From: a virus
Taxonomy: Duplodnaviria > Heunggongvirae > Uroviricota > Caudoviricetes
IMG/VR virus record: IMGVR_UViG_3300015188_000003
Location: 1-40,896 of that record
Length of the DNA stretch: 40,896 bases
Direction: 5' to 3' (one strand)
The notes beneath the pieces were generated by a model. The model did no database searches, was not told where the DNA came from, and saw nothing but the letters and a program-made list of their open reading frames with translations. Positions 1 through 40,896 of this stretch are shown in pieces. A program made the translations under genes and the position numbers. The number at the start of each line of letters is the position of its first letter. The first letter of the stretch is position 1.

Positions 1-141
1 CTGTTGTTAGCGGCCCCCGACGCCTCCATCGGGGTGGGTTCGAATGTGATAGTTTCGCCGGTTTCCAGTGTCGCCGTAAGTTCCTGTAGCCCACGAACAA
101 GATAGTACGTCTTTGACAACAACGGGTGGCTGATTTGCAAC
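1..141. repeat. 141-bp terminal direct repeat, identical to 40756..40896 (circular-closure overlap)
   Basis: First and last 141 nt of the window are the same sequence. Confidence 0.95.
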
Positions 142-4809: not shown

Positions 4810-4838
4810 TTGCGCGCCCCAATATAATAGGGTACTAT
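4810..4838 (+). promoter_or_regulatory. sigma70-like promoter TTGCGC-N17-TACTAT with embedded operator-like 18-mer (4824..4841)
   Basis: Near-identical to the block at 13046..13074; sits upstream of + gene 4867. Confidence 0.45.
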
Positions 4839-4866
4839 TCACCAGTAACTTACTGAGGGTATAATT

Positions 4867-5193
4867 ATGCGTAAATTAGTATTAGCTCTGGGGTTTATGT
4901 CTTTTGCTACTTTTGGAGCCCCGTGCGAACAGGTATTTAGTGAATCTGTTCTTATGACTTCTGGTGTGCTTGATAAAGCCGACCCTACTATTGTAAAGGC
5001 ATTTAAGGACTCCACAGTCCGTGAATGCGAGGCCGCCGTAGATGTCGGTAAATCGGGCCTACCTCCGCAAGCCGTAACATACACGGTAATACGTTCGGTA
5101 GAGAAAACCGGAGACGCGTTTTACAGCCTTCTGACAGCCACCCGTCTGCAAATGGTAATGACTGGATGGGCAATAGGCGCAGAAAGTAAATAG
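4867..5193 (+). CDS. secreted/periplasmic small protein (108 aa), function unknown
   Basis: N-terminal signal peptide MRKLVLALGFMSFATFGAP; GAGGG SD 7 nt upstream; AT-richer than flanking genes; opposite strand to surrounding tail genes. Confidence 0.75.
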   Translation: MRKLVLALGFMSFATFGAPCEQVFSESVLMTSGVLDKADPTIVKAFKDSTVRECEAAVDVGKSGLPPQAVTYTVIRSVEKTGDAFYSLLTATRLQMVMTGWAIGAESK

Positions 5194-5257
5194 TTGCCTT
5201 TATTTAAAGGAATCCACTGTGGTTAAATAGGACAAATCCTAAGCACGAGGAATAAGC

Positions 5258-6388
5258 ATGGCCCGGAAGAAAATAACCGACGAACAGTTACAGGAAGAAT
5301 TGAACGCCGGTATGAAGAATATCGACATCGCCCGTAAATACGGCATCTCAGACCGCGTTATTCGTATCCGTAAAGCGAAGCTGGCTAAGAAAGGCGTAGG
5401 CCACGGGCGCGACGTCAGCCACCTTGTGCCAGATGGCTACAAGATTAAAGGAACGTCGTCACTTGTGGACGAATACGGCAACACTAAGCTGCAATGGGTT
5501 AAGACCGACACCGATGCCGAACGTCAGGTCGAGTTGATGAAAGCCGTAATCGAGGGCATGAAGTCAGAGATTACGCCCGTTGCGCCTGTTAAAGCCGTTC
5601 GAGCCAAACGCGACGATAAACTGCTCAATCTTTACACTGTATCTGATTTCCATCTCGGTATGCTGGCGTGGGCCGACGAGAGCGGCGACGACTGGGACAT
5701 AAAGATTGCGGAAGACCTGTTCTCCCGCTGGTTCGATGCGGCGTTTAAGAAAGCACCGGACGCGGGGACAGGTGTTATTAACCTGCTGGGTGACCTTGCG
5801 CACTTCGATAGTCTGGATGCCGTTACACCAGCGAGTGGTCATATCCTTGACGCGGACACGCGCTACCAGAAACTTGTCCGCTACATGATTCGTATGGTAC
5901 GTCGTGTCGTTGATATGGCTCTTGTTAAGCATAAAACTGTTCGCTTGCTTATCGTGCAAGGGAACCACGACGAAAGCGGAATGATTTGGTTAGCTGAGAT
6001 GTTCAGTACGCTATACGACAACGAGCCTCGTGTGTTCGTCGATACGTCGCCGGATGTTTACAAGATGGTGCAACACGGCAAAACGACGTTGTTCTTCCAT
6101 CACGGGCATAAGGCACGCTTCGACGCTATCGAACCGGTTATGATTGCCAAGTTCCGCAAAGCGTTCGGTGAGAGTGTTTACAGCTACGCCCACGTAGGCC
6201 ACCTGCACCACCAGAAGATTGTAGAAAGCCGTAACATGATTGTTGAGCAACACCGCACCTTAGCGGCGAAAGACGCCTACGCCTCGCGCGGCGGATGGAT
6301 GTCTGGGCGTAGCGCAAACGTAATTACTTATAGCGCCGAATATGGCGAGGTCGCACGTTTAACTATTTCACCGGAGATGCTGGGATGA
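5258..6388 (+). CDS. HTH-domain protein fused to calcineurin-like metallophosphoesterase
   Basis: N-terminal HTH-like NIDIARKYGISDRVIRIRK; phosphoesterase motifs SDFHLG, GDLAHFD, GNHDE, HHGH, GHLHH; GAGGA SD. Confidence 0.8.
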   Translation: MARKKITDEQLQEELNAGMKNIDIARKYGISDRVIRIRKAKLAKKGVGHGRDVSHLVPDGYKIKGTSSLVDEYGNTKLQWVKTDTDAERQVELMKAVIEGMKSEITPVAPVKAVRAKRDDKLLNLYTVSDFHLGMLAWADESGDDWDIKIAEDLFSRWFDAAFKKAPDAGTGVINLLGDLAHFDSLDAVTPASGHILDADTRYQKLVRYMIRMVRRVVDMALVKHKTVRLLIVQGNHDESGMIWLAEMFSTLYDNEPRVFVDTSPDVYKMVQHGKTTLFFHHGHKARFDAIEPVMIAKFRKAFGESVYSYAHVGHLHHQKIVESRNMIVEQHRTLAAKDAYASRGGWMSGRSANVITYSAEYGEVARLTISPEMLG

Positions 6389-6615
6389 CTTCAAAATACA
6401 ACCGCACAATGACAAATACTCACGGCAGCACTATGACAGTAGACGTTTATGATGTGCTCCGCGCTTTCGACATCCGCGACCCGGCGTTACAGCACGCATT
6501 GAAGAAGCTATTGTGCATGGGTTTACGTGGACACAAGGACACCGGAACCGACTTAGCGGAAGCAATTGAAAGTCTGGAAAAGTTACGGGAGTACAGGAGT
6601 AACATTGATGAGTAA
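6385..6615 (+). CDS. hypothetical protein (76 aa)
   Basis: ATGA start/stop overlap with upstream gene; followed by terminator. Confidence 0.6.
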   Translation: MTSKYNRTMTNTHGSTMTVDVYDVLRAFDIRDPALQHALKKLLCMGLRGHKDTGTDLAEAIESLEKLREYRSNIDE

Positions 6616-6647
6616 TAAAAAAGGCCCCTTTCGGGGCCTTAGTTTTA
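6616..6647. terminator. bidirectional rho-independent terminator (AAGGCCCC-TTTC-GGGGCCTT flanked by A-run and T-run)
   Basis: Perfect 8-bp GC stem with U-tracts on both strands between convergent genes. Confidence 0.75.
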
Positions 6648-10325: not shown

Positions 10326-10493
10326 TTATTCCTCTGATTTCGCCCGGCGCTGGCGGCGTGGTGTCTCTTCTTTAGTCGATTCTACCACGGTGCCTTCTGG
10401 TGCGAAACGAGCATCTACCACACGGAACCCCTGACGGTTATACTCGCGCTTCTGCTCGATGGTAATCGGCATTGGTACGTATTTAATTTCCAC
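10326..10493 (-). CDS. small protein (about 55 aa), not on ORF track
   Basis: GTG start with AGGAG SD 8 nt upstream; sits between capsid terminator and next gene. Confidence 0.3.
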   Translation of the reverse strand: MEIKYVPMPITIEQKREYNRQGFRVVDARFAPEGTVVESTKEETPRRQRRAKSEE

Positions 10494-10549: not shown

Positions 10550-11518
10550 TTACTTGTCCGCGTCGGCGATTGCCAGAGTACCGAGGGTGTGTTTGTTCTC
10601 AGCAACAGCTTTGTCCCAGTTTGTCGCGGTGAACAGTTCTGCGTCCAGTGGAGATTTACCGCCGTTGGCAACATCCCAGCTATAGCCTTTCAGTTTCAGG
10701 CCGAAGCTGTAATCCGCCTGCCAGGTGGTCTGGATGCGGGTGTTACCGTTGCTGGTGTCAATGTTGCTGATAATGTCAGAAGCATTGTCAACGATGATGC
10801 CGTTTGCAACTACGGACAGGACCTTAGTCTTGTTCGGAGTACCGGCCCCGTACAGCGCAGGAATGTCAGAGATTACGTAACGCTTGCCGAGAACATCGAC
10901 AACCATAACGTTACCAGCAACGAACAGCTGGTTTGCGTTAGTCAGCGCTTTATCTACCAGCGTGTGATAAGCAGCACCAGTCATGATGTCGGTAATCAGC
11001 AGCTGAGACTGGTCGCCGAATTTAGCGTGGCTGTTGTTCAGCACGTTCAGGGACAGACCCGCGGTTGCAGATACGTCGTTAACCAGCGCGGCCTGACCAG
11101 ATACCGCCGCAACAGCTGCGCCAACAGCGGTGTTGAGCTGGTCCGCTAACAGTGCGTCAGAGAAGCCTTCGGAAATAGCACGAATCGCGCTTGCCGGGTC
11201 TTCGTTAAGCCAGGTCATTTGCGCAGGCTCGAACAGTACCGGTCCGAAGCCGCCAGCGACTTTAACGCCTACATGCTCGCCCTGAGTCAGCGCGGTAGCT
11301 GCCTGAGACGCGATAGCGGCGTAACGGTCAACGCGGCGTTTAGCGGAGGCAATCTGGTTAAAGAAAGACTCACGGGAGAAGTCACCGCGCCATGAAGCGG
11401 TAGACAGTACAATTGCGCCACCGGAGGCTGCGTTAAACTGGTCAGTTTTCTGGCCAAGCAGTTCGATAGTGGTACCGACGATATCGTCGTTATAAACCTT
11501 CATATCTGACAGAGACAT
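10550..11518 (-). CDS. major capsid protein
   Basis: 322-aa ORF directly after scaffold gene, followed by strong terminator. Confidence 0.75.
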   Translation of the reverse strand: MSLSDMKVYNDDIVGTTIELLGQKTDQFNAASGGAIVLSTASWRGDFSRESFFNQIASAKRRVDRYAAIASQAATALTQGEHVGVKVAGGFGPVLFEPAQMTWLNEDPASAIRAISEGFSDALLADQLNTAVGAAVAAVSGQAALVNDVSATAGLSLNVLNNSHAKFGDQSQLLITDIMTGAAYHTLVDKALTNANQLFVAGNVMVVDVLGKRYVISDIPALYGAGTPNKTKVLSVVANGIIVDNASDIISNIDTSNGNTRIQTTWQADYSFGLKLKGYSWDVANGGKSPLDAELFTATNWDKAVAENKHTLGTLAIADADK

Positions 11519-13045: not shown

Positions 13046-13074
13046 TTGCACACCCCAATATAATAGGGTACTAT
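13046..13074 (+). promoter_or_regulatory. sigma70-like promoter TTGCAC-N17-TACTAT with operator-like 18-mer (13060..13077)
   Basis: Same architecture as 4810..4838; precedes strong SD and + gene 13102. Confidence 0.45.
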
Positions 13075-13101
13075 TCAGTTAACTTAAACAGGAGGTGAAA
13101 A

Positions 13102-13305
13102 ATGTATGCAATTTGCGAAGTAGTTCAAGAGTTCGATGAAGAGTTCGACGGTGACTTGTGCCGGGTTAAAAAGGTTCTGCAGGTTTTCCCTGACGCAATG
13201 TCTGCTTACAAGGCATTAGATATATTTGAACCTGGAAGATACGGGGATTATGACACTGTTCTGAGGGTTGTCCATGAGCAGGATTTAAACACAAGATTCC
13301 GTTGA
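13102..13305 (+). CDS. small acidic protein (67 aa), accessory gene on opposite strand
   Basis: AGGAGGTG SD; own promoter and terminator; embedded between leftward head genes and spanins. Confidence 0.7.
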   Translation: MYAICEVVQEFDEEFDGDLCRVKKVLQVFPDAMSAYKALDIFEPGRYGDYDTVLRVVHEQDLNTRFR

Positions 13306-13335
13306 AAACTAAGGCCCCTTAATGGGGCCTTTTAT
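13306..13335. terminator. bidirectional terminator (AAGGCCCC-TTAAT-GGGGCCTT + T-run)
   Basis: GC hairpin between convergent genes. Confidence 0.7.
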
Positions 13336-18184: not shown

Positions 18185-18280
18185 AGAATCCCCTTGCATA
18201 TGCGTCTGACCATCAGAGCGCACCAGACGCGCCCTACGCGTCTAAATGGATTATATAAGGGGATTGGGCGGGATGTACAG

Positions 18281-20227: not shown

Positions 20228-20256
20228 AATATAATAGGGTCGTAGGTAATAGTCAA
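20228..20256 (-). promoter_or_regulatory. sigma70-like promoter TTGACT-N17-TATATT (leftward)
   Basis: Immediately downstream of terminator 20277..20310; shares ATAATAGGG with the operator family. Confidence 0.4.
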
Positions 20257-20276
20257 CTAGTCATTGCAGAAAATAG

Positions 20277-21583: not shown

Positions 21584-22024
21584 TTATCCTAATAGTTGTT
21601 TGGTAATAATCTTGCCGCCGGTGTCAGGGTCGAACTTCGATGCAACTGCTACACCACCTTGCGCCGAATACCCACATTCCATAGCCGCTAGGGCATAAGG
21701 GGCGCCTGAACCAACGGCGGAAAAGCTGTCCGCAATCTGAATAACCAAACTAAGAGCACAATCCCAAGATTTATAGAACTCCACCCTACACAACGTTTCG
21801 ATGTCTTTAACCCACACCAAGGCAGAGAAATCAAAATCGTAGTGCTTAGGCACTAAAATACTATCGTCCTCCACTAAAAGGATACCAACCCCTGCATCGC
21901 CAGCCGCCCCAATAACAACAAATTCGTTCTCGTATATCTTTGTGTCTGTGTTGTAACAGTTACTCCCGCACACAACACGGGTATCACAGGCCATTGTCTT
22001 TCCGTCAAACGCGATAGTAGTCAT
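21584..22024 (-). CDS. HslV/proteasome beta-like Ntn-hydrolase homologue (146 aa, truncated relative to HslV)
   Basis: Starts MTTIAF (Thr right after Met as in HslV MTTIVSV); VIGAAGDAG and VGSGAPYALAA resemble HslV AGFAGG and IGSGGPYAQAA. Confidence 0.6.
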   Translation of the reverse strand: MTTIAFDGKTMACDTRVVCGSNCYNTDTKIYENEFVVIGAAGDAGVGILLVEDDSILVPKHYDFDFSALVWVKDIETLCRVEFYKSWDCALSLVIQIADSFSAVGSGAPYALAAMECGYSAQGGVAVASKFDPDTGGKIITKQLLG

Positions 22025-22583: not shown

Positions 22584-22612
22584 ATTATCTCTCCTCTCGT
22601 TTGTGTAAATGA

Positions 22613-22641
22613 ATAGTAGCCTATTCTATCTTAGTGTGCAA
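22613..22641 (-). promoter_or_regulatory. sigma70-like promoter TTGCAC-N17-TACTAT with operator 18-mer (22610..22627), leftward
   Basis: Reverse complement matches the 13046..13074 block. Confidence 0.45.
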
Positions 22642-23616: not shown

Positions 23617-23650
23617 TTCTAAATTCCTTATGTCTCGTTTCGATAAGTGA

Positions 23651-23679
23651 ATAGTAACCTATTATGTTGGGGTGTGCAA
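23651..23679 (-). promoter_or_regulatory. sigma70-like promoter TTGCAC-N17-TACTAT with operator 18-mer (23648..23665), leftward
   Basis: Reverse complement near-identical to 13046..13077. Confidence 0.45.
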
Positions 23680-23714
23680 GAGAATAGTTACGTTGCCGTT
23701 GTGATTCTTTCGTT

Positions 23715-23777
23715 TCTTAAAAGAGTACGCAACGCAGTGGGTGGGCGTTAGCCCACCCCAGCGGAGTGAAGTACTCT
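23715..23777 (-). terminator. two-tier hairpin (outer AGAGTAC/GTACTCT, inner GGGTGGGC-GTTA-GCCCACCC) with U-rich tail; possible 3' end of transcript from element B
   Basis: Inverted repeats read directly; weak U-tract after outer stem on - strand. Confidence 0.35.
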
Positions 23778-23857
23778 CTACCTTGCTCACGGCAACTATA
23801 GAAACTTTTAATTATCAGTGACTTGGATATTTAGGCGGGATTAACAATAGACTTTGA

Positions 23858-23988
23858 CCCTTCCGAAAGCGTCAGCGGAACTACACTCAAGTGCCTAATG
23901 GCACGCGTTGCGTTCCCTGCCGCTCCGCGGTCGCTTGCGATATCTCACAAGCTCAGTGAAGCTTAGCATATTTTCAAGTAAAAGTCAA
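23858..23988 (-). repeat. conserved ~130-bp intergenic element, copy B (candidate sRNA/leader)
   Basis: Aligned with 12850..12979; shared blocks include CCCTTCCGAA.GCGTCAGCG.AACTACACTCA, CCGCGGTCGCTTG and TCACAAGCTCAG...AAAAGTCAA. Confidence 0.6.
23960..23988 (-). promoter_or_regulatory. candidate leftward promoter TTGACT-N17-TAAGCT inside element B
   Basis: Same boxes and spacing as in copy A. Confidence 0.35.
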
Positions 23989-24035
23989 TACCAGTAGCAT
24001 CTTTTGTATTTTAGTAACTTTGTGTGGTGTTTTGG

Positions 24036-24064
24036 TTGCTTTTACATTCACGCTATCCTATACT
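24036..24064 (+). promoter_or_regulatory. candidate rightward promoter TTGCTT-N17-TATACT for the replication block
   Basis: Only good -35/-10 pair upstream of the first + gene. Confidence 0.4.
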
Positions 24065-24095
24065 CGGTTTCACCAAACAAACAGGAGATATAAAA

Positions 24096-24278
24096 ATGCA
24101 GCATTACATGACACAGAATGAAGTAGCTGAACGTATAGGGGTGACACGTCAGACAATTAATAACTGGTTGCGCAGTGGTAAATTCCCGGATTGTTGTATT
24201 AAGGTTATGGGTCGCCGTTTACCAGGAACATTTGACCGTAATAAAGTTGAAGCATGGATTAAGGAGAACGTGAAATGA
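24096..24278 (+). CDS. small HTH DNA-binding protein (AlpA/excisionase-type fold, regulator)
   Basis: MTQNEVAERIGVTRQTINNWL helix-turn-helix; ATG with AGGAG SD (track start 24024 is GTG). Confidence 0.7.
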   Translation: MQHYMTQNEVAERIGVTRQTINNWLRSGKFPDCCIKVMGRRLPGTFDRNKVEAWIKENVK

Positions 24279-26933: not shown

Positions 26934-26960
26934 GTAAAAAGAAAGGGGCATTAAGCCCCT
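26931..26960 (-). terminator. terminator for the regulator gene (AGGGGC-loop-GCCCCT + U-tract on - strand)
   Basis: Hairpin overlaps stop of 26951..27166. Confidence 0.6.
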
Positions 26961-27166
26961 TCACCGAACGCCAGCCACTTGGCGTCTACTTGTAGCACTT
27001 CCGCCAGCTTGAACAGCGTCGCCGGCCGGACGTCCTGAGTTACCCCGAGCGCAAGCTGGTTAATCGCGCCCTGGGAAACGCCAGCCAGGACCGCCAGACG
27101 GCGCTGGGAGATGCCGAGTTCTTTACGGCGTTGTTCTACGCGGATACCTAGTTCAGATGGTTGCAT
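26951..27166 (-). CDS. XRE/Cro-CI-type HTH transcriptional regulator (71 aa)
   Basis: LGISQRRLAVLAGVSQGAINQL helix-turn-helix; divergent from operator-bearing promoters. Confidence 0.8.
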   Translation of the reverse strand: MQPSELGIRVEQRRKELGISQRRLAVLAGVSQGAINQLALGVTQDVRPATLFKLAEVLQVDAKWLAFGEGA

Positions 27167-27186
27167 GTCAATTATTCCTTAGTCAG

Positions 27187-27215
27187 TTGATATGTGAATA
27201 GTACCATATTAATTA
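27187..27215. promoter_or_regulatory. operator 18-mer TGAATAGTACCATATTAA (27195..27212) in divergent region with weak promoter elements
   Basis: Motif family member 25 nt upstream of the regulator start codon. Confidence 0.4.
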
Positions 27216-27230
27216 TTTTAGAAAAGCCCA

Positions 27231-27259
27231 TTGACACGTGAATAGTTCGCTATTATAGT
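27231..27259 (+). promoter_or_regulatory. strong sigma70-like promoter TTGACA-N17-TATAGT with operator 18-mer in the spacer (27239..27256)
   Basis: Consensus -35, 17-bp spacer; operator occupies the spacer. Confidence 0.55.
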
Positions 27260-29345: not shown

Positions 29346-29545
29346 TTCAAGTAAATGAAATGCCGACTGATAAAGATTTTTTGATGGTATGGCGCTGGGA
29401 TGGGTATCTACACTCGGAATCGTTCACGTTCTTGAACGGTACCATGATGCGATACGACCCTGTAGAGGATGAGTTCGAACCGGCCAATATGCTTAATTTC
29501 GAGAACATAATCCCTATTGCAAAATTTTATTTGACACATGAATAG
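29342..29545 (+). CDS. hypothetical protein (67 aa)
   Basis: ATGA overlap with nuclease stop; last codons overlap promoter 29531..29559. Confidence 0.6.
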   Translation: MIQVNEMPTDKDFLMVWRWDGYLHSESFTFLNGTMMRYDPVEDEFEPANMLNFENIIPIAKFYLTHE

Positions 29546-29559
29546 TTAGCTATTATAGT
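29531..29559 (+). promoter_or_regulatory. sigma70-like promoter TTGACA-N17-TATAGT with operator 18-mer (29539..29556), overlapping the 3' end of the upstream CDS
   Basis: Same architecture as 27231..27259. Confidence 0.5.
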
Positions 29560-32721: not shown

Positions 32722-32995
32722 GGGGCGCGTGCAGAAATACGCAAAAGAGCGATTCGAGGCCCTGGGAGGCCTCGTACGCAAATTGTCGTACGAGGGGCGT
32801 TCCGGCGCCCCCGACCTGCTGGTAATTCTCCCTGGTGGCATCATCTGGTTCGTCGAGGTTAAGAAAGACGAAAACACGAAGCCGGACCCGCACCAGTTAC
32901 GAGAGCACGAGCGGATGCGTAAACGTGGTGCAAATGTTTTTGTCGTTGGTTCGTTTAAACAGGTTGACGACCTAATAGCGGGCTATTATAGTTAA
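32708..32995 (+). CDS. VRR-NUC domain nuclease
   Basis: GAPDLLVILPGGIIWFVEVKK...PHQ resembles VRR-NUC core. Confidence 0.7.
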   Translation: MSTPEGRVQKYAKERFEALGGLVRKLSYEGRSGAPDLLVILPGGIIWFVEVKKDENTKPDPHQLREHERMRKRGANVFVVGSFKQVDDLIAGYYS

Positions 32996-33025: not shown

Positions 33026-33217
33026 ATGAAACACGAATACGACCGCAAACCAGCACGTGACATCGTACCGGGTGACATGATTTTCAACGTTAAGACACGT
33101 CAACCTGTTGCCGTTGATACGGTGTTCGTCGAGTCGAACGGTAAACTGGTTATCGAAGATGTAACGGGTAACGTTACGGCGTTCGGGCGTAAAGAGCTGG
33201 TGCTGGTGGCGAAATGA
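33026..33217 (+). CDS. hypothetical protein (63 aa)
   Basis: AAGGA SD; ATGA overlap with methyltransferase gene. Confidence 0.65.
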   Translation: MKHEYDRKPARDIVPGDMIFNVKTRQPVAVDTVFVESNGKLVIEDVTGNVTAFGRKELVLVAK

Positions 33218-34008
33218 ACTATTACAATGAATGGGATAAAGGCGCAGCCGCGTGGCTGCGTGAGTTGATAAAACAGGGTCACATACCTTTTGGAGTTGTA
33301 GATGAAAGAAGCATTACCGAAGTTAAGCCAGAAGACCTTGACGGGTTCACCCAGTGTCATTTTTTCGCGGGTATCGGCGGCTGGCCTCTCGCGCTCAGAC
33401 TTGCGGGAGTTTCTGAAGATACGCCTATATGGACGGGAAGTCCGCCTTGCCAACCGTTTAGCACGGCAGGAAAGCAACTCGGACAGTTCGACCAGAGACA
33501 CCTCGCACCTGTGCTCCTCGACCTCATCAGCGAGTGCCACCCTCCAGTCATCTTTGGGGAGCAGGTTGCGGCAGCAATTGCAAAATCGTGGATGTGCGAT
33601 TTACAAACTCACCTGGAAAGAGAAGACTACGCCGTCGGGTTTGCCGTACTCCCAGCTTGTAGCGTCGGCGCACCGCACAAAAGGAATCGATTGTTCTTCG
33701 GAGCGCAGCAACTGGCCAACACCGTGTGCGAACAACTCGGCGGGAGCAGGCCATCAGGGCAGGAACGGGGGCCACAATCTGCAAACAGAGGCATCTCTGA
33801 CACAGCCAATCCGCCTAACGGGTTCTGGTCAGATGCTGACTGGCTCGGATGCCGGGATGGAAAATTCAGGCCAGTTGAACCCAGCACATTCCCGCTGGCT
33901 AATGGGGTACCCGCCAGAGTGGGACGATTGCGCGGTTACGGCAATGCTATCGTCCCGCAAGTAGCCGCTGAATTTATAAAGGCGTTCATGGGGGCCGTAA
34001 ATGAGTAA
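33214..34008 (+). CDS. DNA (cytosine-5)-methyltransferase, compact; possible internal frame disruption
   Basis: Motif I FFAGIGGW, motif [26 protein letters not shown] in track frame; canonical [16 protein letters not shown]-type motif sits in the +1 frame (33302..33964). Confidence 0.7.
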
Positions 34009-40461: not shown

Positions 40462-40896
40462 GTAGTCAACAGGCCGCGTAATAACGGTATCTCTTTAGGT
40501 GTCATCAGTATACCAGTGCTTCGTTGGTTCAGCATAGGTGTACCGACATCCGCAGAGAACTCGCCCTTCTCCTGGTTGATGGCCTGTAACTCGTACACGA
40601 CAGGGCCGTCCGCCGGATAAGACAGGTCGGTGCTGACGTAACGGCGAAATACGAACTTCGGCAACTCCGTATTGCCCATTGGGATTTTATCCATCTCATC
40701 ATCAAGTTGATTGAGGATATCCGGTAAAGTAAACGTGGTCGTCTGGTCCATATCACTGTTGTTAGCGGCCCCCGACGCCTCCATCGGGGTGGGTTCGAAT
40801 GTGATAGTTTCGCCGGTTTCCAGTGTCGCCGTAAGTTCCTGTAGCCCACGAACAAGATAGTACGTCTTTGACAACAACGGGTGGCTGATTTGCAAC
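40458..40896 (-). CDS. minor tail protein (L-like position), C-terminal part of the junction-spanning gene
   Basis: Track ORF 40458..40895 appears to start at the window edge (TTG); frame continues into 1..218; ATGA overlap with next gene at 40461. Confidence 0.6.
   Translation of the reverse strand, partial: LQISHPLLSKTYYLVRGLQELTATLETGETITFEPTPMEASGAANNSDMDQTTTFTLPDILNQLDDEMDKIPMGNTELPKFVFRRYVSTDLSYPADGPVVYELQAINQEKGEFSADVGTPMLNQRSTGILMTPKEIPLLRGLLTT
40756..40896. repeat. 141-bp terminal direct repeat, second copy
   Basis: Identical to 1..141. Confidence 0.95.

What the first reader, a model, noticed from the sequence alone, without database searches (positions are those of the whole stretch)
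26951..27215. Cro/CI-type regulator present without any recognisable integrase or lysogeny module
The genome encodes a 71-aa XRE HTH protein divergent from operator-bearing promoters, but I found no tyrosine/serine recombinase, no partition system and no protelomerase. The regulator is therefore more likely a Cro-like temporal switch of a virulent phage than an immunity repressor; a lysogenic mode using host-encoded functions cannot be excluded from sequence alone.
Basis: partly seen in the sequence, partly recalled or inferred. Interest (0 to 1): 0.45.

Follow-up and report, generated by a model that had tools for sequence, protein, structure and literature searches.

The report
Cro-like repressor of a virulent coliphage
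The window is a complete genome of an ordinary lytic E. coli phage (genus Kagunavirus), and its small Cro-like DNA-binding protein most likely turns down about eight of the phage's own promoters during infection rather than maintaining a dormant prophage.

Summary
ORF 26951-27166 (-) encodes a 71-aa Cro/C1-type HTH protein (Pfam HTH_3, E 1e-12). Its best solved relative is the 71-aa phage 434 Cro. The window closes on itself (141-nt terminal overlap), so it is a complete 40,755-bp genome, about 92% identical to Kagunavirus phages (590B, Bas70-76). Pfam scans of all called genes and the ten longest shadow ORFs found no integrase, resolvase, transposase, partition protein or protelomerase. Neither half of the genome matches any of 5,426 complete E. 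coli genomes. Every homologue of the regulator lies on a contig of 45 kb or less.

New here: the operator next to the gene, AATAG-N4-CTATT, is the most over-represented palindrome in the genome (7 exact copies; 0.06 expected). It lies inside the core of at least seven sigma-70-like promoters, including the three strongest. The sites are conserved at orthologous positions in Bas72 and in Salmonella phage Jersey. The gene is under strong purifying selection (pN/pS 0.06).

The protein is therefore probably an autoregulated, genome-wide repressor of early and middle promoters. Binding has not been shown. This is an ordinary, already annotated feature of Guernseyvirinae, so interest is modest.

The parts
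26951..27166 (-). xre gene: 71-aa single-domain Cro/C1-type HTH protein. It is monocistronic and lies between two rightward (+) operons.
   Evidence: ORF and translation. Pfam HTH_3 E 1.2e-12. 434 Cro is the best PDB sequence hit, E 4.9e-7, aligned over residues 6-68. AF2 gives a five-helix model, pLDDT 79. Foldseek to 2cro gives TM 0.73-0.79 and 40% identity. pN/pS is 0.058 over 34 alleles.
26942..26962 (-). Intrinsic terminator of xre: GAAGGGGC-TTAAT-GCCCCTTT followed by CTTTTTACTT. It overlaps the last codons of xre. There is no T-run on the + strand.
   Evidence: Terminator scan and sequence.
27196..27211 (.). O1: GAATAGTACCATATTA, an operator-like palindrome with one mismatch. It lies over the inferred start site and leader of xre, inside a weak rightward promoter-like site (TTGATA-18-AATTAT, 27187-27216).
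   Evidence: The half-sites are invariant in 36 unique relatives.
27240..27255 (.). O2: GAATAGTTCGCTATTA, an exact AATAG-N4-CTATT palindrome, 44 bp from O1. It fills the 17-bp spacer of the rightward promoter and overlaps the -35 of the candidate xre promoter.
   Evidence: Among relatives the central 4 nt vary (CGAA, CTAA, TGAA, CAAA, CGAG, CTAG) while the half-sites are invariant.
27231..27259 (+). Class A promoter TTGACA-17-TATAGT. It drives orf166, orf90, the DUF2800 exonuclease and downstream genes.
   Evidence: 11 of 12 matches. Downstream genes.
27215..27242 (-). Candidate promoter of xre itself: TTCACG-16-TAAAAT. Its -35 lies inside O2 and the inferred start is near 27208, inside O1.
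   Evidence: 9 of 12 matches. The -10 TAAAAT is conserved in most relatives. The start site is inferred, not measured.
29531..29559 (+). Class A promoter TTGACA-17-TATAGT with operator GAATAGTTAGCTATTA (29540-29555). It lies upstream of the SSB-like gene and DNA polymerase A.
   Evidence: 11 of 12 matches. Orthologous sites in Bas72 and Jersey.
32964..32992 (+). Class A promoter TTGACG-17-TATAGT with operator TAATAGCGGGCTATTA (32973-32988). It lies upstream of orf63, the Dcm methylase and the SNF2 helicase.
   Evidence: 10 of 12 matches. Orthologous sites in Bas72 and Jersey. The Jersey site lies within a promoter annotated by the depositors.
23651..23679 (-). Class B promoter TTGCAC-17-TACTAT. 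The operator (23649-23664) lies over the -10. It is the first leftward promoter, upstream of orf72 and the small-gene cluster.
   Evidence: Orthologue in Bas72.
22613..22641 (-). Class B promoter TTGCAC-17-TACTAT with operator 22611-22626. It is leftward, upstream of small genes, the HslV-like peptidase, holins and endolysin.
   Evidence: Orthologues in Bas72 and Jersey.
4810..4838 (+). Class B promoter TTGCGC-17-TACTAT with operator 4825-4840. It drives a + strand cassette (orf108, metallophosphoesterase, orf76) embedded antisense in the tail-gene block.
   Evidence: Terminator at 6621-6640. Orthologues in Bas72 and Jersey.
13046..13074 (+). Class B promoter TTGCAC-17-TACTAT with operator 13061-13076. 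It drives a single + strand gene (13102-13305) embedded antisense in the head-gene block.
   Evidence: Terminator at 13311-13331. Orthologue in Bas72.
20228..20262 (-). Possible further site: GACTAGTTGACTATTA (one mismatch) overlapping the -35 of TTGACT-17-TATATT. It is leftward, downstream of the lysis genes.
   Evidence: A one-mismatch orthologue occurs in Bas72 and in Jersey, inside an annotated Jersey promoter. This site is weaker than the others.
24096..24278 (+). Second small regulator: 60-aa HTH_17 / phrog_66 ('excisionase and transcriptional regulator'). It is the first gene of the helicase-primase operon. Its promoter-like site (TTGCTT-17-TATACT, about 24035-24063) lacks the palindrome.
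   Evidence: The promoter was read by eye and not reported by the scan.

Best explanation
The gene encodes a single-domain repressor resembling 434 Cro. It is a conserved core gene of the virulent siphovirus subfamily Guernseyvirinae.

Inferred mechanism. A dimer binds the 14-16-bp palindrome (T/G)AATAG-N4-CTATT(A/C).
- Two copies lie 44 bp apart in its own 124-bp control region.
- O2 fills the spacer of the near-consensus rightward promoter of the replication/recombination operon and covers the -35 of the xre promoter.
- O1 covers the xre start site. As the protein accumulates, it would therefore shut down both its own synthesis and the divergent operon.
- The same palindrome lies in the spacer, or over the -10, of at least six further sigma-70-type promoters. 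Two more are in the replication module, two are leftward promoters of the small-gene and lysis cluster, and two drive cassettes that run antisense to the structural genes.
- The promoter-like site in front of the packaging and structural block (about 18250-18279) and that of the HTH_17/helicase-primase operon lack it.

The protein would thus act as an autoregulated, genome-wide turn-down of host-RNA-polymerase-dependent early and middle transcription during a lytic cycle. This is the role Cro plays in lambda lytic growth. It would not be a prophage immunity repressor.

Shown: the gene and its family, its conservation and selection, the motif and its enrichment and positions, and the absence of lysogeny genes and of prophage copies. 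Inferred: that this protein binds this motif, the sign of regulation, the timing, and the transcription start sites.
For: Identity of the protein:
- HTH_3 at 48 bits.
- 434 Cro (71 aa) is the best PDB sequence hit.
- The model has five helices and matches 434 Cro, the 434 and P22 repressor DNA-binding domains and SinR-N.

Operators:
- A 25-nt direct repeat occurs twice beside the gene.
- AATAG-N4-CTATT has 7 exact copies against 0.06 expected, and 13 against 1.0 with one mismatch allowed; 10 of the 13 are intergenic.
- It is the top-ranked of all 5-N(0-8)-5 palindromes in the window, Bas72, Jersey and CP088689, with a null maximum of 2-4.
- It lies inside the three best sigma-70 matches of the genome.
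- The central 4 nt vary while the half-sites are invariant in relatives.
- Orthologous sites occur in Bas72 and in Jersey, whose regulator is only about 50% identical. Four lie in promoters annotated by the Jersey depositors.

Constraint:
- The gene is intact in all 37 sequences compared, the window plus 36 IMG/VR relatives (one of them a 74-aa variant), with pN/pS 0.058.
- It is present in 568 phage records.

Virulent context:
- The genome is complete and circular.
- It has no recombinase, partition or telomerase genes.
- It has no match in 5,426 complete E. coli genomes.
- All homologues lie on contigs of 45 kb or less.
- No dif-like site was found.
- Relatives are reported as lytic (PMC9787291, PMC9409062).
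- In RNA-seq of Kagunavirus K1B4, the gene next to the AAA helicase ('specific DNA binding', 004) peaks in the middle period. Gene order suggests it is the xre orthologue (PMC12645636).
Against: - No binding, footprint or genetic data exist for this protein or any orthologue in the literature searched.
- The palindrome could be bound by the other HTH protein (24096-24278) or by a host factor.
- The intergenic region is highly conserved overall in the shallow set of relatives, so conservation of the half-sites discriminates only weakly.
- Operators at the leftward promoters that lead to the lysis genes also fit a whole-genome silencer, which is what an immunity repressor is.
- The gene sits in the cI-like position (lone and divergent), not in the Cro position.
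- Assigning K1B4_004 to xre rests on gene order alone, and that data set uses unusual time classes.
- Class B promoters have weak -35 hexamers and were read by eye; the consensus scan did not report them.
Confidence: 0.62

Rival explanations
1. Immunity-type master repressor of a non-integrative persistent state (pseudolysogeny, carrier state or unstable episomal lysogeny). By occupying operators at nearly all early, middle and lysis promoters, the protein could silence the genome in a fraction of infected cells without an integrase.
For: - Operators lie at most strong promoters, including the leftward ones upstream of the lysis genes.
- The gene occupies a cI-like divergent position.
- A complete Kagunavirus genome is deposited as a 44,086-bp circular 'plasmid', pC16EC0033-2, of a blood E. 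coli isolate.
- Serratia phage eta shares the Jersey-type structural module, lacks an integrase, and still forms unstable, mitomycin-inducible lysogens (PMC3918226).
- An excisionase-like phrog_66 gene is retained.
Against: - There is no partition system, protelomerase or recombinase.
- The protein has no C-terminal domain for cooperative oligomerisation or RecA-induced cleavage.
- Only one such record exists among 72,556 plasmids, and none among 20,395 RefSeq E. coli replicons. That record could be a phage contaminating or growing in the culture.
- Isolates are described as lytic and used for therapy (PMC9787291, PMC11990801).
- Phage eta shares only the morphogenesis cassette, and its authors report no demonstrable repressor.
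Confidence: 0.1
2. The palindrome belongs to another factor: the HTH_17 protein, a host regulator, or a promoter-intrinsic element. On this reading xre only autoregulates, or acts on host genes.
For: - No direct link between protein and motif has been shown.
- A second DNA-binding protein is encoded 3 kb away and appears to be expressed early (PMC12645636).
- Class B promoters share sequence beyond the palindrome (ACCCCAAYAT), suggesting a promoter family that arose by duplication.
Against: - Two copies flank xre's own promoter, the classic autoregulatory layout. The HTH_17 promoter has none.
- A 14-bp dyad with a variable centre is the operator geometry of 434 Cro and repressor dimers (established knowledge).
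- HTH_17/excisionase-type proteins usually bind as monomers to directly repeated or asymmetric sites (established knowledge).
- The motif and xre co-occur across both genera.
Confidence: 0.15
3. A decaying relic of an ancestral lysogeny module (Cro-like plus Xis-like genes left after loss of cI and int), with no important present function.
For: - An excisionase-like gene is present without an integrase (PMC9409062 raises the same idea for Jerseyvirus).
- Weak homologues (38-41%) occur in lambdoid and Stx phages.
- Distant head-module relatives sit in Pseudomonas and Janthinobacterium chromosomes.
Against: - pN/pS is 0.058 and the gene is intact in every relative examined.
- It is retained across roughly 470 genomes of two genera at about 50% divergence.
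- It has a conserved RBS, terminator and operators.
- An ancestral origin is compatible with the main explanation; lack of function is not.
Confidence: 0.04
4. A concentration-dependent dual regulator, like restriction-modification controller (C) proteins or phi29 p4. It would activate at low occupancy and repress at high occupancy, timing a delayed switch.
For: - C.AhdI and C.BclI are among the best fold matches.
- Two tandem operators of unequal quality lie beside the gene.
- Class B promoters have weak -35 elements that might need help.
Against: - The palindrome lies within the spacer or over the -10 of 17-bp-spacer promoters. These are positions that occlude RNA polymerase.
- Class A promoters are near-consensus and need no activator.
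- No restriction enzyme partner is present.
Confidence: 0.08

Closest known systems
Phage 434 Cro (and the DNA-binding domains of the 434 and P22 C2 repressors)
   Same: Same length (71 aa) and the same five-helix Cro/C1 HTH fold. It is the best sequence hit in the PDB, E 4.9e-7, about 40% identical over the whole chain. The putative operator is a 14-bp dyad with a non-conserved centre, like the 434 ACAA-N6-TTGT operators (established knowledge). The sites overlap core promoter elements, and the layout is autoregulatory.
   Different: There is no partner cI gene and no tripartite OR. The gene is a lone divergent unit, not the first gene of the rightward operon. The half-site differs (AATAG). 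The operators are spread over about eight promoters across the genome instead of two control regions. The host phage has no lysogeny functions.
The same gene in described Guernseyvirinae (590B 'transcriptional repressor DicA', Bas72_0050 'transcriptional regulator', Jersey gp50, SE-W112 'Cro')
   Same: Orthologous gene in the same position between the helicase-primase gene and the replication operon. It is 93-100% identical in Kagunavirus and about 50% in Jerseyvirus. These phages are reported as lytic and integrase-free (PMC9787291, PMC9409062).
   Different: Nothing essential: this is a new isolate or contig of the same kind. In the papers I could search, the gene is only annotated. Neither its operators nor a regulon are described.
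Mycobacteriophage L5 repressor gp71 with its roughly 30 genome-wide 'stoperators' (recalled from the literature, not tested here)
   Same: One small phage repressor with many copies of one short site distributed through the genome in intergenic regions.
   Different: L5 is temperate and gp71 is its immunity repressor. Its sites are asymmetric and act on elongation. Here the sites are palindromic and lie in promoter cores, and the phage shows no sign of lysogeny.
Virulent derivatives of temperate phages that keep a cro-like gene after losing the lysogeny module (for example Streptococcus thermophilus Sfi19 versus Sfi21; recalled, not tested here)
   Same: A Cro-like regulator, and here also an excisionase-like gene, is kept in a phage without integrase or CI.
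   Different: No close temperate sibling of Guernseyvirinae was found. Only the head module has distant prophage relatives at 54-69% identity.

Membership tests
Cro/C1-type (XRE) HTH DNA-binding proteins | HTH_3 domain above the curated threshold | tested here: met
   48.1 bits against a cut-off of 23, residues 11-65.
Cro/C1-type (XRE) HTH DNA-binding proteins | Five-helix globular fold as in 434 Cro and the 434 repressor DNA-binding domain | tested here: met
   AF2 model with pLDDT 79 and helices at 5-17, 21-28, 32-39, 48-57 and 62-66. Foldseek hits to 2cro, 3cro, 1pra, 3jxb and 3qq6 with TM 0.72-0.80.
Cro/C1-type (XRE) HTH DNA-binding proteins | Dimer binding to a dyad-symmetric operator near its own promoter | tested here: inconclusive
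   Two palindromes lie beside the gene and the motif is strongly enriched. Binding itself cannot be tested with these tools.
Lambdoid Cro in the strict sense (lytic arm of a CI/Cro bistable switch) | First gene of the rightward early operon, divergent from a cI gene, sharing its operators | tested here: not met
   No second repressor gene is adjacent. The gene is itself the lone divergent unit. The first rightward gene is an acidic 166-aa protein of unknown function, phrog_3127.
CI-type prophage immunity repressor | C-terminal oligomerisation / S24 autocleavage domain | tested here: not met
   The protein is 71 aa, and the HTH domain fills the whole chain.
CI-type prophage immunity repressor | Accompanying integration or plasmid-maintenance functions (integrase, transposase, ParAB, protelomerase) | tested here: not met
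   No such Pfam family was found in any gene call or long shadow ORF of the complete genome. No dif-like site was found.
CI-type prophage immunity repressor | Prophage copies in host genomes | tested here: not met
   No megablast match in 5,426 complete E. coli genomes. Homologues occur only on contigs of 45 kb or less. One extrachromosomal 'plasmid' record exists. Salmonella and other hosts were not searched at the DNA level.
Kagunavirus (Guernseyvirinae) genome | High nucleotide identity and synteny with type members | tested here: met
   90-94% identity over 74-87% of the sequence to 590B, Bas70-76, XY2 and Golestan. 66 of 82 Bas72 proteins map collinearly. Species-level demarcation was not computed.
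Type II toxin-antitoxin antitoxin (HigA/HipB-like) | Adjacent co-transcribed toxin gene | tested here: not met
   The gene is monocistronic, bounded by its promoter region and a terminator, with converging and diverging neighbours on the other strand.
Restriction-modification controller (C) protein | Location immediately upstream of, or within, a restriction-modification operon with a C-box | tested here: not met
   No restriction endonuclease was detected. The only methylase (33214-34008) is 6 kb away in another transcription unit.

The most novel reading that the evidence does not exclude
The single-domain repressor, through its roughly eight to twelve promoter-embedded operators, can silence almost the whole genome. 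This would allow Guernseyvirinae to persist as a repressed, non-integrated episome (carrier state or pseudolysogeny) in a subpopulation of cells without integrase, partition system or an inducible CI. It would explain the circular Kagunavirus 'plasmid' in a clinical E. coli assembly, and it would matter for phages now used as 'strictly lytic' therapeutics.
Probability: 0.07. Interest if true: 0.6.

Novelty: new member of a known kind. Interest (0 to 1): 0.27.

Why it matters
On its own the finding is ordinary. The phage belongs to a well-sampled lytic group, and the gene is already annotated as a repressor or Cro in many GenBank records.

Two points have practical value.

First, automated lifestyle calls sometimes flag 'repressor' and 'excisionase' genes in these therapy-candidate phages. 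The evidence here shows the flags do not indicate temperate behaviour: the genome is complete without a recombinase, no prophage copies were found, and the protein is a single domain.

Second, the conserved palindrome gives a concrete, testable transcription map for Kagunavirus and Jerseyvirus. It marks about eight promoters and predicts one small repressor that controls them. This is useful for groups that engineer these small siphoviruses, such as CM001 and the BASEL isolates.

Tried and rejected
- GTDB genome scan with the major capsid protein. It returned only 54-69% relatives in Pseudomonas and Janthinobacterium chromosomes and in some MAGs. These share just the head and neck genes at 23-57% identity. 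They are not integrated copies of this phage. The window's capsid gene is also a variant absent from Bas72, so this was a weak probe for Kagunavirus prophages.
- Exhaustive HMMER search with the XRE alignment. It was dominated by multi-repeat HTH proteins, and the family is a single 50% cluster. It gave no information on Cro-like versus CI-like relatives.
- Supplement of the K1B4 transcriptome paper. It holds only the host gene table, so the identity of K1B4_004 and K1B4_008 rests on gene order.
- Leaderless-mRNA reading of a second minus-strand promoter (TTCACA-16-AATAAT, 27198-27171). I rejected it because its -10 overlaps the conserved RBS and loses the key T in several relatives (AGTAAC, AGTAGC).
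- Toxin-antitoxin and R-M controller readings. Both were rejected on gene context.
- XerCD/dif-type integration. No dif-like site was found. The dif sequence was recalled from memory, so this test is weak.
- Rfam and tRNA scans of the window found nothing.
- Literature searches for pseudolysogeny or operators in these genera found nothing specific.
Full report
WHAT THE WINDOW IS

The first and last 141 nt of the window are identical. It is therefore a circularly closed assembly of a 40,755-bp genome. Megablast places it in the genus Kagunavirus (Guernseyvirinae). It is 90-94% identical over 74-87% of its length to Escherichia phages 590B, XY2, Golestan and the BASEL isolates Bas70-76. Of the 82 Bas72 proteins, 66 map collinearly onto the window. 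Because the genome is complete, the statement 'no integrase' is a statement about the whole genome and not about a fragment.

THE OBSERVATION

ORF 26951-27166 (-) encodes a 71-aa protein.
- It matches Pfam HTH_3 well above threshold (48 bits, E 1.2e-12).
- Its best sequence match among all solved structures is the 71-aa Cro of phage 434, E 4.9e-7, aligned over residues 6-68. The 434 repressor and P22 C2 DNA-binding domains follow.
- An AlphaFold model (pLDDT 79) has the expected five helices. It superposes on 434 Cro (40% identity, TM 0.73-0.79), SinR-N, the 434 and P22 repressor domains and R-M controller proteins.
- The chain has no room for a C-terminal dimerisation or autocleavage domain.
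- The gene is monocistronic. An intrinsic terminator at 26942-26962 (-) overlaps its last codons. The helicase-primase gene converges on it from the left.

THE NEGATIVE CLAIM

I concatenated 67 gene calls into pseudo-proteins and scanned them against Pfam. I also scanned the ten longest shadow ORFs.
- The hits are the expected ones: terminase, portal, Mu-F, capsid, tail, lysis, helicase-primase (AAA_25), DUF2800 nuclease, SSB-like protein, Pol A, VRR-NUC, Dcm and SNF2 helicase.
- There is no tyrosine or serine recombinase, no rve transposase, no ParA/ParB and no protelomerase.
One paper already notes this gene as a marker of Jerseyvirus that lacks any integrase partner (PMC9409062).

INTEGRATED COPIES

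- Neither half of the genome gives any megablast match in 5,426 complete E. coli genomes, 20,395 replicons.
- The 20 close homologues of the regulator in a 5.8-billion-protein collection all lie on contigs of at most 45 kb, which is phage size.
- All 37 IMG/VR contigs that encode it are 45 kb or shorter.
- No dif-like site was found.
- A GTDB scan with the capsid protein found only distant relatives (54-69%) in Pseudomonas and Janthinobacterium chromosomes. They share only head genes.
- The single exception in spirit is CP088689.1, a 44,086-bp circular 'plasmid' of a Korean blood isolate. It is a whole Kagunavirus genome with no maintenance genes. It could reflect a carrier culture or simple contamination.

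THE OPERATORS

The 124-bp region between xre and the next gene holds two copies of a 25-nt repeat, 44 bp apart. Each contains the palindrome GAATAG-N4-CTATTA.
- O2 (27240-27255) is exact. O1 (27196-27211) has one mismatch.
- O2 fills the 17-bp spacer of TTGACA-17-TATAGT (27231-27259), an 11-of-12 match. This promoter heads the operon of replication and recombination genes.
- On the other strand, the -35 of the best conserved candidate promoter for xre (TTCACG-16-TAAAAT, 27242-27215) lies inside O2. Its inferred start lies inside O1.
- In 36 distinct relatives the half-sites are invariant, while the four central bases of O2 and the bases between O2 and the -35 vary.

BEYOND THE STATED COORDINATES

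Searching the whole genome showed that the palindrome is not local.
- AATAG-N4-CTATT occurs 7 times exactly, against 0.06 expected. With one mismatch allowed it occurs 13 times, against 1.0 expected. Ten of the 13 sites are intergenic.
- An unbiased count of every 5-N(0-8)-5 palindrome ranks it first in the window, in Bas72, in the 'plasmid' CP088689 and in Salmonella phage Jersey. Shuffled sequences never exceed 4, and the runners-up are terminator hairpins.

The sites fall into two promoter classes.
- Class A, on the + strand in the replication module: TTGAC(A/G)-N4-(G/T)AATAG-N4-CTATTA-TAGT, at 27231, 29531 and 32964. These are the three best sigma-70 matches in the genome.
- Class B: TTGC(A/G)C-17-TACTAT with the palindrome over the -10.
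  - Two copies, at 23679-23651 and 22641-22613, drive the leftward small-gene and lysis cluster.
  - Two more, at 4810-4838 and 13046-13074, drive short + strand cassettes that run antisense inside the structural block. Each cassette has its own terminator.
- A weaker site overlaps TTGACT-17-TATATT at 20256-20228.
- Two promoter-like sites lack the palindrome. One lies ahead of the packaging and structural genes (18279-18250, just after a terminator). The other heads the HTH_17/helicase-primase operon (about 24035-24063).

Orthologous sites are present in Bas72 and in Jersey, whose regulator is only about 50% identical. Four of the Jersey sites fall within promoters annotated by its depositors.

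CONSTRAINT

The gene is intact in all 37 sequences compared (the window plus 36 IMG/VR relatives; one carries a 74-aa variant), with pN/pS of 0.058 over 34 distinct alleles. A homologue is found in 568 phage records. About 117 are Kagunavirus at 90% identity or more, and about 350 are Jerseyvirus near 50%. Only weak matches (38-41%) occur in lambdoid and Stx phages.

MECHANISM

The best-supported reading is a dimeric repressor of the 434-Cro type that binds these palindromes. Bound in the spacer or over the -10 of 17-bp-spacer promoters, it would exclude RNA polymerase. Because it also covers its own promoter, it would be negatively autoregulated. As it accumulates it would turn down early and middle transcription, including the antisense cassettes that would otherwise collide with late transcription. 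The operator-free promoters would keep running. This is the job Cro does in lambda lytic growth. With a single autoregulated repressor and no partner, there is no evident bistable switch.

- Shown: the gene, its fold class, the motif, its enrichment, positions and conservation, and the absence of lysogeny functions and prophage copies.
- Inferred: that this protein binds this motif (I put this at about 0.75), the sign and timing of regulation, and all transcription start sites.
- One RNA-seq study of Kagunavirus K1B4 classes an HTH gene (008) as early. It classes the 'specific DNA binding' gene next to the AAA helicase (004) as middle. By gene order, 008 is the HTH_17 gene and 004 is xre (PMC12645636). 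This fits the model, but the gene assignment is mine and the data set is coarse.

RIVALS

- Immunity repressor for a non-integrative persistent state. The genome-wide operators, the cI-like gene position, the 'plasmid' record and the precedent of Serratia phage eta keep this alive. Eta shares the Jersey-type structural module, has no integrase, and forms unstable lysogens (PMC3918226). Against it stand the lack of any maintenance function, the single-domain protein, the absence of prophages and the lytic behaviour reported for isolates. I give it about 0.1.
- Another factor binds the palindrome: about 0.15.
- A functionless relic is contradicted by the selection data.
- A C-protein-like dual regulator is disfavoured by the operator positions.

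COMPARISON AND NOVELTY

In fold and probably in operator geometry, the protein works like 434 Cro. It is not a member of a CI/Cro switch, because it has no partner, a different gene position and many dispersed operators. The dispersed-operator layout recalls the stoperators of mycobacteriophage L5 gp71 (from memory). Those sites are asymmetric and belong to a temperate phage.

The gene itself is already annotated in many Guernseyvirinae records as repressor, Cro or DicA. The integrase-free, lytic nature of the group is published (PMC9787291, PMC9409062, PMC11990801). I found no description of the palindrome regulon in the searchable literature. The founding paper of the subfamily, however, is not in that library.

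VERDICT

The phage is a new member of a known kind. The added value is a conserved, testable operator and promoter map.

Noticed in passing
window 1-141 and 40756-40896: Exact 141-nt terminal overlap. The window is a circularly closed assembly of a complete 40,755-bp genome, and the minor tail gene 40458-40973 runs across the junction.
   Followed up: yes
window 4826, 13062, 22612, 23650, 27241, 29541, 32974 (exact); 27197, 20248, 14865, 12971 (one mismatch): The palindrome AATAG-N4-CTATT is the most enriched palindrome in the genome. It marks two families of sigma-70-like promoters (TTGACA-17-TATAGT and TTGCAC-17-TACTAT) and is conserved in Bas72 and phage Jersey.
   Followed up: yes
window 24096-24278 (+): 60-aa HTH_17 / phrog_66 'excisionase and transcriptional regulator' with no integrase anywhere in the genome. 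It is the first gene of the helicase-primase operon, and its promoter lacks the palindrome. Its role is unknown; it could be an early activator or act on resident prophages, as PMC9409062 speculates.
   Followed up: partly
plasmid record CP088689.1 (L047): A 44,086-bp circular 'plasmid', pC16EC0033-2, of a human blood E. coli isolate is a complete Kagunavirus genome. It is 92% identical over 66% of the right half of the window and has no replicon typing or partition genes. It is either a carrier-state culture or phage contamination.
   Followed up: partly
window 10550-11518 (-) and 10326-10493 (-): The major capsid gene (Pfam Gp13-like) is a module swap relative to Bas72, whose capsid and three following proteins have no match in the window. 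Its nearest relatives in GTDB genomes are 54-69% identical genes in Pseudomonas and Janthinobacterium chromosomes and a Psychromonas MAG.
   Followed up: partly
window 21584-22024 (-): 146-aa protein starting MTTIAFDG, matching phrog_1040 'peptidase HslV family' (E 1e-33). It is absent from Bas72 and sits just upstream of the holin genes.
   Followed up: no
window 23617-24095: A non-coding stretch of about 480 bp lies between the divergent leftward and rightward early promoters. It contains a GC-rich hairpin (23738-23762) and folds more stably than shuffles (z -2.66 for 23690-24030). It has no Rfam match. It could hold an origin or a small RNA.
   Followed up: partly
window 26935-26965: The hairpin after xre has a T-run only on the minus strand. 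Rightward transcription from the helicase-primase operon may therefore read through xre in antisense, which could delay XRE synthesis early in infection.
   Followed up: no
window 4810-6640 and 13046-13331 (+): Two self-contained + strand cassettes, each with its own promoter, operator and terminator, are embedded antisense in the minus-strand structural gene block. One encodes a signal-peptide-like 108-aa protein, a 376-aa metallophosphoesterase and a 76-aa protein. The other encodes a 67-aa protein.
   Followed up: partly
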